The notes beneath the pieces are model-generated. The model ran no database searches. It saw only the letters and a program-made list of their open reading frames with translations, and had not been told where the DNA came from. The position numbers were made by a program, and so were the translations under genes. A DNA stretch of 55,260 nucleotides from a virus (Duplodnaviria; Caudoviricetes): positions 1 to 55,260 of IMG/VR virus record IMGVR_UViG_3300025191_000002. One strand, written 5' to 3'. Numbering within the stretch: the first letter of the stretch is position 1; every line of letters starts with the position of its first letter. Positions 29,262 through 29,577 of the stretch are shown one piece after another.

Positions 29262-29577
29262 TGAGTACCAAATGTGACCAAAAATAGAGTCACAAATAAA
29301 ATGGTACACAAGTTAGGACACAAAAGTCACCAATAACAGCATTAAAAGTCAGTGCATAACCGTAGATAGGAGTGTTAACTATACATTTAAGTTATTGTTT
29401 TAGATGAAATAAAGAGGATTAAAGAGGGATAAAAATAAATAGCGGTAGATGACTAGAGGCAATGAATCATTAAGTTTAATAGCTTGCCCGTATCTGAACC
29501 AAATTCATGTTTTTCAATGTTTTTTTCTTGTGTCATGGTCTTGCCTTTTTCCGTTTTGGTACACAAATTGGTACTCA
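29262..29577. mobile_element. attP region: arm-type repeats and IHF-like site
   Basis: TGAGTACCAA (29262) is inverted at 29568-29577; TGGTACACAA is direct at 29302 and 29557; TAAGTTATTGTTT at 29388 is IHF-like; adjacent to int. Confidence 0.75.
29453..29536 (-). other. Phage-borne 5' fragment resembling htpG (Hsp90) N-terminus inside attP
   Basis: [27 protein letters not shown]; compare HtpG consensus E...F..E..[12 protein letters not shown]. Confidence 0.7.

What the first reader, a model, noticed from the sequence alone, without database searches (positions are those of the whole stretch)
29453..29536. attP carries a replacement N-terminus for HtpG (Hsp90): probable integration into the 5' end of htpG
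Seen: between the arm-type repeats, the minus strand has AAAAAGG-n6-ATG and encodes [27 protein letters not shown]. The ORF track misses it. Established: HtpG/Hsp90 proteins begin [23 protein letters not shown], and elements that integrate in the 5' end of a gene can rebuild it (SXT in prfC, dusA-associated islands). Inference: the crossover core lies near TTAATGATTCAT (about 29462-29473), where similarity ends. The lysogen would then make a chimeric Hsp90 with a phage-specified, possibly divergent N-terminal strand (FGSDTGKLL versus typical FQ[TS]EVKQLL). I do not recall this target being described for this phage type, but I cannot check the literature.
Basis: partly seen in the sequence, partly recalled or inferred. 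Interest (0 to 1): 0.88.

Follow-up and report, generated by a model that had tools for sequence, protein, structure and literature searches.

The report
Phage rebuilds host Hsp90 gene start
This is the attachment site of a marine Pseudoalteromonas phage that inserts into the start of the host's Hsp90 chaperone gene (htpG) and supplies a substitute promoter and first 25 codons, a patch that some bacterial lineages seem to have kept for good.

Summary
The window is a complete temperate phage genome. The minus-strand ORF at 29536..29453 ([27 protein letters not shown]) lies in attP next to a P4/CP4-like tyrosine integrase.

- **Lysogens:** 6 of 140 Pseudoalteromonas species genomes carry a close integrase (67-85% identity). 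In all 6, a truncated native htpG start ([24 protein letters not shown] plus 0-2 codons, then stop) lies about 200 bp upstream of int. In all 6, the only full-length htpG begins with a phage-type N-terminus.
- **This phage's own junctions:** near-identical phages (98-99% integrase identity) and an independent metagenome run show attL and attR. Their breakpoints fall exactly at 29482 and 29461.
- **Crossover:** it lies within ATGATYCA (window 29463-29470).
- **P arm:** it also carries a conserved heat-shock-like promoter, two arm-type sites and an RBS.
- **New here:** 21 of 140 species have the phage-type htpG start, but 15 of these lack the integrase. Thirteen of them form one clade with pN/pS 0.023 over the 25 codons. 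This looks like a fossil attR.

Integration into a gene's 5' end with rebuilding is known (dusA, prfC). I found no paper naming htpG as a target.

The parts
29453..29536 (-). Phage-borne htpG start: 25 codons ([25 protein letters not shown]) that replace the host's first 24 codons after integration. In attP they are followed by Cys-Leu-stop.
   Evidence: Translation. All 10 related P arms have exactly 25 in-frame codons from ATG to His. In 6 of 6 lysogens these codons are fused in frame to SLYSNKEIF... of the only htpG.
29461..29482 (.). attP/attB identity block (minus strand CTATTAAACTTAATGATTCATT = codons L-L-N-L-M-I-H). Strand exchange must fall within 29463-29470 (ATGATTCA).
   Evidence: Identical to the host side of attL of a 99%-identical phage and 20 bp identical to an empty htpG. 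The attL/attR shared block is 16, 16, 10, 13 and 23 bp in five lysogens, and ATGATTCA in G068. Loose ends of run X7 fall at 29461 and 29482.
29544..29550 (-). Ribosome-binding site AAAAAGG, 7 nt before the ATG.
   Evidence: Sequence. An AAAGG or AGGA block is kept at this place in the aligned P arms.
29556..29577 (-). Two direct arm-type integrase sites of the P arm (TGAGTACCAA, TGTGTACCAA), lying in the 5' leader of the rebuilt htpG.
   Evidence: 0 and 1 mismatch. GTACCA..TG.GTACCA is invariant in 10 of 10 related P arms.
29621..29651 (-). Promoter-like element CCCTTGAA-N15-CACAATAT reading towards the rebuilt htpG (in attP: towards the 27-codon ORF and int).
   Evidence: It is the only match in the window to CTTGAA-N13-16-CNCNATNT (expected 0.10; 10 of 100 shuffles had at least 1; the pattern was chosen after seeing it). 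CTTGA and CAATAT are among the few invariant blocks of the P-arm alignment. The native htpG promoter is CCCTTGAA-N14-CCCCATAT. The sigma-70 scan does not flag it.
29262..29322 (.). P' arm arm-type sites: 29262-29271 (+), 29301-29310 (-) and 29313-29322 (-), with a possible degenerate copy at 29273-29282 (+).
   Evidence: These blocks are conserved in 6 aligned P' arms.
28048..29247 (-). Tyrosine integrase, 399 aa, P4/CP4-like, with an arm-binding N-domain.
   Evidence: Pfam Phage_integrase 1.8e-20 and Arm-DNA-bind_3 4.8e-18. Its N-domain matches CP4-like integrase 3jtz at 1.3e-8. Motifs ...GCRISE..., HDFRRT, LGH and AIY are visible in the translation.
27849..28067 (+). Candidate excisionase or recombination directionality factor (72 aa), convergent with int.
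   Evidence: Pfam HTH_17 at 6e-6, 26.9 bits against a cut-off of 27. NCBIfam HTH_BldC at 1.3e-5, below cut-off. This is weak, so the function is inferred from position.

Best explanation
The region 29250-29660 is the attP of a temperate, roughly 55-kb Pseudoalteromonas phage. Its P4/CP4-like tyrosine integrase recombines it with codons 17-24 of the host chaperone gene htpG (Hsp90).

**What integration produces.** The crossover lies within ATGATYCA (Met-Ile-His).
- attL: the native heat-shock promoter and the first 24 native codons run into phage DNA. They end after 0-2 further codons as a dead-end ORF of 24 to 26 codons, just upstream of int.
- attR: the phage P arm supplies a promoter, a leader that contains two arm-type Int sites, an RBS and 25 new codons. 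These are fused in frame to htpG codon 25 onward. The lysogen therefore keeps one full-length, chimeric HtpG.

**What the replaced segment is.** It corresponds to E. coli HtpG residues 1-22, the N-terminal strand and the start of helix 1. It differs from the native sequence at positions that are invariant in related native HtpGs (F-G-[ST]-D-x-G-[KR] for F-Q-T-E-V-K-Q).

**Shown:** the site, both recombination products, the frame, and conservation of the module.
**Inferred:** that the promoter fires, which sigma factor it uses, and that the chimeric protein works. The last is strongly suggested by purifying selection, including in lineages that kept only the patch and lost the phage.
For: - **Phage record.** The window is a complete virus record with a 126-nt terminal overlap. 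It encodes terminase, portal, major head protein, a CI/LexA-like repressor and a CII-like protein.
- **Integrase domains and arm sites.**
- **Lysogens.** 6 of 140 genus genomes have the integrase at E<=1e-60. 6 of 6 have [24 protein letters not shown] plus CL*, CI*, * or SI* upstream of int. 6 of 6 have a single PF00183 match, and it starts with a phage-type N-terminus.
- **Prophage size.** The int-to-htpG distance is about 55, 57, 60 and 41 kb in the four genomes where both ends lie on one contig. The window is 55 kb.
- **Empty site.** In a relative it equals attL-left plus attR-right.
- **Junctions of near-identical phages.**
- **Independent run X7.** It has both junctions at 29461 and 29482. 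RNA-library run X16 has a contig crossing 29461 into htpG, which is only a weak hint because DNA carry-over is possible.
- **Module conservation.** The phage module has 25 codons in 10 of 10 sequences, pooled pN/pS 0.28, and conserved promoter, arm-site and RBS blocks.
- **Family score.** The chimeric protein scores 729.4 bits on the NCBIfam HtpG model against 734.4 for a native one; the cut-off is 371.
- **Residue mapping.** Residues map to E. coli HtpG F9-H22.
- **Prophage-free clade.** In 13 prophage-free genomes with the phage-type start, pN/pS is 0.023.
Against: - No experiment shows integration, transcription from the phage promoter, or activity of the chimeric HtpG.
- The RNA evidence is a contig from an RNA library and may be DNA.
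- The promoter's -10 (CACAATAT) departs from the native CCCCATAT. The pattern test was post hoc, with 10 of 100 shuffles also giving a hit.
- pN/pS among the phage copies is only moderately low: 0.28 overall and 0.41 outside the core codons.
- The excisionase call is below Pfam's cut-off.
- One related attP contig carries a Psychromonas MAG label, so the host range is not fully settled.
- G001 and G101 have attL and attR on different contigs, so prophage continuity there is inferred.
Confidence: 0.93

Rival explanations
1. The swap is more than a repair: it is a lysogenic conversion. The phage-specified N-terminal strand and helix-1 start, together with the phage promoter, retune HtpG (lid closure or ATPase rate, temperature response, or expression level) to the phage's or the lysogen's benefit.
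For: - The phage segment keeps its own motif (F-G-[ST]-D-x-G-[KR]) across phages whose integrases are only 67-85% identical. It does not drift towards the native F-Q-T-E-V-K-Q.
- The native motif is invariant in the sampled relatives.
- The phage-type pattern was found in 1 of 401 genomes sampled across the order, and that one was the lysogen used as the centre of the search.
- Passages of PMC4381864 state that N-terminal strand-swap residues and helix 1/lid contacts regulate closure and ATPase in Hsp90 homologues.
- The promoter's -10 differs from the native one.
- The patch was fixed in lineages without the phage.
Against: - The family-model score drops by only about 5 bits, and the two proteins compared come from different species.
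- F-G-x-x-x-G N-termini also occur in six unnamed HtpG clusters whose bodies resemble the Sulfurimonas type, so the motif lies within natural variation.
- The DNA of this stretch may also be constrained as part of the P arm.
- No biochemical data exist.
Confidence: 0.25
2. The direction is reversed. The phage-type htpG start is the native version of the P. luteoviolacea-like clade, and an ancestral phage captured it from such a host, for example by imprecise excision. The 15 integrase-less genomes would then not be fossil attR sites.
For: - In the unrooted tree of the module, the phage copies form one group with the G101 phage next to the 13-genome clade. A root inside the clade cannot be excluded.
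- The clade/G101 type (FGTDVGKLL) is the type closest to the native FQTEVKQLL.
Against: - The nearest host by HtpG body, G101, has a native-type start displaced in its attL. The common ancestor therefore had the native type.
- The clade's leader holds a decayed arm-type site whose majority consensus TGTGTACTAA matches the phage site at 9 of 10 positions. That fits decay better than origin.
- G083 and G120 sit among native (G079) and lysogen (G070) close relatives. They share only about 119 nt upstream of the ATG with the G070 prophage end.
- A vertical origin would need a new promoter, leader and 25 codons to arise in a segment that is invariant elsewhere.
Confidence: 0.15
3. The chimeric gene is a tolerated scar. 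htpG is dispensable, the fused protein is inactive or not made, and the in-frame ORF is a by-product of att-site constraints.
For: htpG is non-essential in E. coli (recalled, not from a call). Part of the 25 codons overlaps the core, and the leader carries Int sites, so some conservation is DNA-level.
Against: - 10 of 10 modules keep ATG, RBS, frame and length.
- Synonymous changes outnumber replacements (pN/pS 0.28).
- In 13 prophage-free genomes, where att constraints no longer apply, 13 of 14 variable codons change only synonymously and pN/pS is 0.023.
- No lysogen has a second htpG.
Confidence: 0.04

Closest known systems
dusA-associated integrases (DAI) of prophages and genomic islands
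   Same: A tyrosine integrase targets the 5' end of a conserved housekeeping gene. The element replaces the 5' end with its own sequence, putative promoters are present after insertion, and the new sequence supplies a substitute N-terminal beta-strand (passages of PMC4482086).
   Different: The target is htpG, not dusA. The carrier here is a 55-kb tailed phage with lambda-like arm sites placed inside the leader of the rebuilt gene. The promoter imitates the target's own heat-shock promoter. I did not test whether this integrase belongs to the DAI clade. Its arm-binding domain is CP4/P4-like.
SXT/R391 integrative conjugative elements in prfC
   Same: Site-specific integration into the 5' extremity of a conserved protein-coding gene (passage of review PMC5812530). 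That SXT brings a new promoter and 5' coding sequence for prfC is recalled from Hochhut and Waldor 1999, which I did not read.
   Different: SXT/R391 is a conjugative element, not a phage, and the gene differs. No fixation of the patch without the element is known to me (recalled).
Lambda-type heterobivalent attP (P arm, core, P' arm with arm-type and core-type Int sites)
   Same: The integrase has an arm-binding domain, with repeated arm sites on both sides of a short core (2 in P, at least 3 in P'). The lambda layout itself is recalled.
   Different: The core and part of the P arm are coding sequence. The P arm doubles as promoter, leader and RBS of a host gene. attP lies upstream of int, so int sits downstream of an htpG-type promoter in both the free and the integrated state.

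Membership tests
Tyrosine-recombinase attP/integrase module (heterobivalent, P4/CP4-like) | Catalytic Phage_integrase domain with R...HxxR...H...Y residues | tested here: met
   PF00589 at 1.8e-20. GCRISE, HDFRRT, LGH and AIY are visible in the translation. Assigning these as the catalytic residues is by recall of the family motif.
Tyrosine-recombinase attP/integrase module (heterobivalent, P4/CP4-like) | N-terminal arm-type DNA-binding domain | tested here: met
   PF13356 at 4.8e-18. CP4-like integrase N-domain 3jtz at 1.3e-8.
Tyrosine-recombinase attP/integrase module (heterobivalent, P4/CP4-like) | Repeated arm-type sites on both sides of a core shared with attB | tested here: met
   4 of 4 window matches to TGTGTACCAA with at most 1 mismatch lie at 29262-29577. 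A 20-22 bp block is identical to htpG.
Tyrosine-recombinase attP/integrase module (heterobivalent, P4/CP4-like) | Recombination products attL and attR exist | tested here: met
   6 of 6 lysogen genomes. Viral contigs with 98-99% identical integrase. Run X7 loose ends at 29461 and 29482.
Tyrosine-recombinase attP/integrase module (heterobivalent, P4/CP4-like) | Int-dependent integration and Xis-dependent excision shown in vivo or in vitro | not testable with these tools
   Needs experiments. A contig holding both attL and attP suggests both forms exist in one sample.
Elements that integrate in a gene's 5' end and rebuild it (dusA islands, SXT in prfC) | Insertion inside the 5' coding end of a conserved gene | tested here: met
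   The junction falls after codon 24 of native htpG.
Elements that integrate in a gene's 5' end and rebuild it (dusA islands, SXT in prfC) | The element supplies an in-frame replacement 5' coding sequence | tested here: met
   25 phage codons fused to SLYSNKEIF... in 6 of 6 lysogens, giving open frames of 641-670 codons.
Elements that integrate in a gene's 5' end and rebuild it (dusA islands, SXT in prfC) | The element supplies a working promoter for the rebuilt gene | tested here: inconclusive
   A conserved CTTGAA-N15-CACAATAT lies in all P arms and is kept in prophage-free genomes. There is no transcript-start data. The RNA-library contigs are ambiguous.
Elements that integrate in a gene's 5' end and rebuild it (dusA islands, SXT in prfC) | The integrase belongs to the DAI or SXT integrase clades | not tested
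   No reference DAI or SXT integrase sequence was fetched. The best cultured-phage integrase hit is 32.5% identical.
HtpG/Hsp90 (for the chimeric product) | Passes the curated HtpG equivalog model and keeps the ATPase motifs downstream of the junction | tested here: met
   NF003555 at 729.4 bits against a cut-off of 371, on the first 525 aa of the G001 chimera. It aligns to E. coli HtpG structures from F9 onward with ...[14 protein letters not shown]... intact.
Sigma-32 (heat-shock) promoter | CTTGAA(A) -35, a 13-16 nt spacer, and a CCCCATnT -10 (consensus recalled from E. coli work) | tested here: inconclusive
   The -35 CCCTTGAA is identical to the native htpG promoter, but the -10 is CACAATAT. 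In lysogen G044 the loose pattern hits 21 sites against 10 for the reversed control. These include native htpG and sites upstream of FtsJ, HrcA and DUF493/YbeD genes. Only one other site has a CACAATAT-type -10.

The most novel reading that the evidence does not exclude
A temperate phage family carries a portable 'front end' for the host's Hsp90: a heat-shock-like promoter, a leader and the N-terminal strand/helix-1 codons. This front end is more than a neutral repair. It retunes the chaperone, and it has permanently replaced the native front end at least twice. One replacement covers a whole P. luteoviolacea-like clade (13 of 140 species genomes), where only the roughly 195-bp patch survives after loss of the prophage. 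Part of a core chaperone of these bacteria would then be of phage origin.
Probability: 0.25. Interest if true: 0.8.

Novelty: new member of a known kind. Interest (0 to 1): 0.66.

Why it matters
- **New target.** It adds htpG (Hsp90) to the short list of protein-coding genes whose 5' end is targeted and rebuilt by an integrating element. Here the carrier is a tailed phage, and the Int arm sites lie inside the leader of the rebuilt gene.
- **A natural N-terminal swap.** It is a natural experiment on the Hsp90 N-terminal strand and helix 1. In other Hsp90 homologues this region regulates lid closure and ATPase (PMC4381864 passages). Native and phage-type HtpG differ only in residues 1-25 and can be compared directly.
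- **Prophage decay.** The 15 integrase-less genomes with the phage-type start suggest that prophage decay can leave an irreversible, selected 'patch' in a core gene. Automated annotation simply calls such genes HtpG.
- **Practical points.** The 22-bp site is a defined attB for an integrase in Pseudoalteromonas. In lysogens, int lies downstream of the host's heat-shock promoter, which may link stress to integrase expression.

Tried and rejected
- **Cultured phages.** Megablast of 27500-30500 found nothing. The best integrase hit by tblastn is 32.5% identical. No cultured close relative is available for annotation transfer.
- **tRNA target.** No tRNA gene is in the window.
- **Sigma-70 promoter for htpG or int.** The consensus scan found 3 sites in 29150-30000 against 3.0 expected. 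None is the conserved element and none lies on the minus strand upstream of int.
- **Is the phage-type N-terminus a native variant of the order?** The pattern was found in 1 of 401 sampled genomes, and that one was the lysogen G001 itself. The sample is thin, so this shows 'not found in those searched', not absence.
- **Direction of transfer.** The module tree is unrooted and one row (the MAG) came out empty through my script, which distorted the midpoint root. I use only its groupings.
- **RNA runs.** X15 covers only 29549-29779 and X16 covers 29461-29955 in pieces. These are unstranded contigs from RNA libraries, so they cannot show a transcript start or strand. Parts without cover say nothing.
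- **Literature.** Nine searches were run. Of those aimed at htpG as an att site, required the word htpG. They returned 4, 1, 5 and 8 papers, none on this topic as judged from titles, abstracts and the passages of PMC12421847. One search was badly designed because htpG was not required, so it is uninformative. The main texts of PMC12424338 and PMC12884075 do not contain 'htpG'. The 2020 NAR paper on precise mapping of integrative elements is not held. Supplements and the TIGER/Islander database could list htpG as a target, and I could not see them.
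Full report
**What is in the window**

The window is a whole IMG/VR virus record of 55,260 bases. Its first 126 bases recur at 55129, so it is a circularly assembled genome of about 55.1 kb. It encodes terminase, portal, major head protein, internal virion and tail-fibre proteins, a CI/LexA-type repressor and a CII-like regulator. It is therefore a temperate tailed phage. 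It contains no tRNA gene.

At the reported place the minus strand reads [27 protein letters not shown], from ATG 29536 to stop 29453.

About 205 nt further along the same strand starts a 399-aa tyrosine integrase (29247..28048). It has an arm-binding domain and a catalytic domain, a CP4-like N-domain and the usual R/HxxR/H/Y motifs.

Copies of TGTGTACCAA flank the small ORF. All 4 of the 4 window matches with at most one mismatch lie between 29262 and 29577. At two mismatches the count (55) is not above chance (47), so only these tight copies count.

**Test of the interpretation in genomes**

A scan of species-representative genomes with the integrase found two loci. One was in Pseudoalteromonas sp. 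APC 3691 (85% identity) and the other was a 4.2-kb contig of a MAG labelled Psychromonas (77%).

In the Pseudoalteromonas contig the integrase is preceded by dnaX, ybaB, recR, a transporter/acyltransferase gene and a pseudouridine-synthase-like gene. These names are my reading of the translations, not a family search. After them comes a 26-codon ORF, [26 protein letters not shown]. This is a native htpG start cut at the same ...LMIH and ending in the same Cys-Leu-stop as the window.

The same genome has one PF00183 (HSP90) match, on another contig. It is followed by a 214-aa ORF that I read as adk from its translation. Its open frame reads ...[45 protein letters not shown]....

Across the genus, 6 of 140 genomes have the integrase at E<=1e-60, at 67-85% identity. 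All 6 have the truncated native start about 200 bp upstream of int. All 6 have a single HSP90 match, and it begins with a phage-type N-terminus:
- MTN[KQ][16 protein letters not shown]
- [20 protein letters not shown]
- [20 protein letters not shown]
- [20 protein letters not shown]

Where both ends lie on one contig, they are about 55, 57, 60 and 41 kb apart. The window is 55 kb.

In relatives without the integrase, htpG is uninterrupted and starts [33 protein letters not shown]. The DNA of one of them equals attL-left plus attR-right of the lysogen.

**Evidence for the window's own phage**

IMG/VR holds phages with 98-100% identical integrases.
- One contig (99% identity) begins with a host-type htpG promoter and native start. 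After ...ATGATTCATT it runs into sequence identical to the window's P' arm.
- Another (98% identity) has that attL at one end and a complete attP at the other. Both the integrated and the circular form were present in that sample.

Contigs from public runs were then laid on 28800-30000.
- DNA metagenome X7 is not flagged as a possible source of the window. It leaves the window exactly at 29461 into sequence that encodes [10 protein letters not shown], and at 29482 into sequence that encodes [10 protein letters not shown].
- Run X9 has a contig that bridges the whole attP.
- RNA-library run X16 has a contig that crosses 29461 into htpG. This is a weak hint of a chimeric transcript, because DNA carry-over cannot be excluded.

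**Anatomy of the site**

The block identical between attP and attB is 29461-29482. On the minus strand it reads CTATTAAACTTAATGATTCATT, the codons L-L-N-L-M-I-H. It is 22 bp against one host and 20 bp against another.

Within individual lysogens the block shared by attL and attR is 16, 16, 10, 13 and 23 bp, and in G068 only ATGATTCA. Strand exchange must therefore occur inside ATGATYCA, window 29463-29470.

I aligned ten P arms: the window, three other attP and six attR. Only a few blocks are invariant:
- CTTGA and CAATAT, about 20 nt apart
- two arm-type sites
- an AAAGG-type RBS
- the ATG

From the ATG to the His codon there are always exactly 25 codons. Pooled pN/pS over nine distinct sequences is 0.28, or 0.41 outside the core codons.

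**The promoter**

The native htpG promoter of the genus is CCCTTGAA-N14-CCCCATAT in nine loci. That is the heat-shock (sigma-32) consensus as I recall it from E. coli.

The phage arm has CCCTTGAA-N15-CACAATAT at 29651..29621. This is the only match in the window to a loose version of that pattern. Expectation was 0.10, and 10 of 100 shuffles had at least one match; the pattern was chosen after I had seen the site. The sigma-70 scan does not flag it.

In lysogen G044 the loose pattern hits 21 places against 10 for the reversed control. These include native htpG at attL, the phage promoter at attR, and sites upstream of FtsJ, HrcA and DUF493/YbeD genes.

The -35 is therefore heat-shock-like, while the -10 is atypical. 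Which sigma factor reads it stays open. I put a heat-shock promoter at about even odds.

**The chimeric protein**

By alignment to solved E. coli HtpG, phage residues F12-H25 correspond to F9-H22, and the junction follows H22. The phage therefore specifies the N-terminal strand and the start of helix 1.

The chimera scores 729.4 bits on NCBI's HtpG model and a native protein of another species scores 734.4, on the first roughly 525 residues; the cut-off is 371.

Native relatives all have GFQ[TS]EVKQLL. The phage-type pattern was found in 1 of 401 genomes sampled across the order, and that one was the lysogen itself.

In other Hsp90s this strand and the helix 1/lid contacts regulate closure and ATPase (passages of PMC4381864). 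A functional shift is therefore possible. Against it, six unnamed clusters of HtpGs resembling the Sulfurimonas type start MAKHEFGAQVGDLL, so F-G...G lies within natural variation.

**An unexpected extension: patch without phage**

I searched the 5.8-billion-protein set with residues 1-40 of a chimera. Among the best 120 clusters, 23 have phage-type starts. Many are named by their sources as HtpG of P. luteoviolacea, P. umbrosa or 'MULTISPECIES' Pseudoalteromonas, and start MSDIKNKENHQFGTDVGKLL.

In the genus, 21 of 140 genomes carry the phage-type start, but only 6 carry the integrase. The other 15 were examined as follows.
- **Local gene order.** In two of them, htpG lies about 3.4 kb from recR. 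Only small ORFs lie between, and none matches the window's proteins.
- **Integrase.** In five of them, the best integrase match is 23-29% identical and lies elsewhere.
- **Native start.** The native htpG start is not found in 3 of the 5. In the other 2 it gives only weak matches to the first roughly 40 nt of the query, upstream of the start codon.
- **Promoter and leader.** All 15 keep the phage-type promoter and a leader of the same length. In 13 the arm sites have decayed, and their majority consensus TGTGTACTAA matches the phage site at 9 of 10 positions.
- **Selection.** Those 13 form one clade in an HtpG-body tree (support 0.998), with lysogen G101 nearest. Over the 25 codons, 13 of 14 variable codons change only synonymously and pN/pS is 0.023.
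- **Second event.** The remaining two (G083, G120) sit among a lysogen (G070) and a native-type genome (G079). They share homology with the G070 prophage end only up to 119 nt upstream of the ATG.

I read these as fossil attR sites. The prophage was lost by deletion, but the patch of about 195 bp had to stay because htpG depends on it. This happened at least twice. It is also the best evidence that the chimeric HtpG works.

The reverse direction, in which a phage captured the clade's native start, is not excluded by the unrooted module tree. It fits the displaced native start in G101's attL and the decayed arm site less well. I give it about 0.15.

**Mechanism, with status of each step**

1. 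*Shown by sequence.* attP consists of a P arm, a core and a P' arm. The P arm holds the promoter, two arm sites, the RBS and 25 codons. The P' arm holds two codons, a stop and at least three arm sites. int follows.
2. *Shown by natural products.* Recombination with htpG codons 17-24 gives attL and attR. attL is the native promoter plus 24 codons, a stop, then int. attR is the phage promoter plus 25 codons fused to the rest of htpG.
3. *Inferred.* The phage promoter drives the chimera, and the chimera is functional.
4. *Speculative.* The swap changes HtpG regulation or kinetics. Also, in lysogens the host heat-shock promoter reads into int, because no terminator-like site was flagged between them.

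**Comparison with what is known**

This works like the dusA-associated islands, which replace the 5' end of dusA and supply putative promoters and a substitute beta-strand (PMC4482086 passages). It also works like SXT/R391 in the 5' end of prfC (PMC5812530 passage).

I did not test whether the integrase belongs to those clades. Its closest cultured-phage relatives are only 32.5% identical.

I found no paper that names htpG as an integration target (searches; texts 27, 48, 49). One relevant survey is not held, supplements are closed, and large island databases may list it.

**Verdict**

I class it as a new member of a known kind. Two features raise its interest: a promoter that imitates the target's own, and fixation of the phage-made front end in prophage-free lineages. 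Interest is 0.66.

Noticed in passing
window 1-126 and 55129-55254: The first 126 bases recur identically near the end. The record is a circular assembly with an overlap, unit length about 55,128 bp, although the source classes it as 'linear'.
   Followed up: partly
window 29993-40768 (-): A 3,591-aa ORF lies next to attP, with LPD38 (large polyvalent protein domain), ResIII and Helicase_C domains. It is a 'polyvalent protein' of the kind found on phages and conjugative elements. Its function here is unexplored.
   Followed up: partly
window 29247-29651 (-); L005-L010 attL loci: int lies downstream of an htpG-type promoter in both states: the phage copy in attP and the host's native CCCTTGAA-N14-CCCCATAT promoter in attL. 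No terminator-like site and no sigma-70-like promoter was flagged between them on that strand. Heat shock might therefore raise int transcription in lysogens.
   Followed up: partly
window 29732-29944 (+), terminator-like hairpin 29962-29987: A 70-aa hydrophobic ORF with no family match lies beside the P arm, followed by a good hairpin terminator. Contigs from RNA libraries cover it. It may be a moron expressed from the prophage end.
   Followed up: no
L003 (4,253-b contig of a MAG labelled Psychromonas): This contig is an attP form whose P arm matches the attR of the Pseudoalteromonas lysogens G001 and G044, and whose P' arm matches the attL of G044, almost base for base. The Psychromonas label may be a binning effect rather than a second host genus.
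   Followed up: partly
G152 (IMG/VR contig, loci L043 and L046): One metagenomic contig carries attL (host htpG start) at one end and a full attP at the other, with about 77 bases repeated. This suggests either a mixture of integrated and circular forms or a tandem prophage.
   Followed up: partly
proteins P0055, P0074-P0076, P0081, P0082: Six unnamed HtpG clusters (618-625 aa), whose bodies resemble the Sulfurimonas type, start MAKHEFGAQVGDLLNLMIH. This is an F-G...G start like the phage's. Whether it is native there or another element-borne patch is unknown.
   Followed up: no
protein P0027 (653 aa, metagenomic): This HtpG starts MTIEKDVIKHEFASDNARILQLMIH, a more distant relative of the phage-type start on a different HtpG body (...SNAADAADK). 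Related phages may use htpG in another genus.
   Followed up: no
G036 C1 3520000-3540000 and G032 C1 20000-40000 (L068, L069): In the prophage-free phage-type clade, the genes between recR and htpG are three small membrane ORFs, a 150-aa ORF that I read as an HTH regulator from its sequence (not searched against any family library) and a roughly 100-aa ORF. Other Pseudoalteromonas have a transporter/acyltransferase gene and a pseudouridine-synthase-like gene there. These ORFs might be remnants of the lost element.
   Followed up: no
window 17377-18876: Divergent CII-like (17377-17895, -) and CI/LexA-type S24 repressor (18235-18876, +) genes mark the lysogeny switch. This suggests SOS-inducible control.
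   Followed up: no
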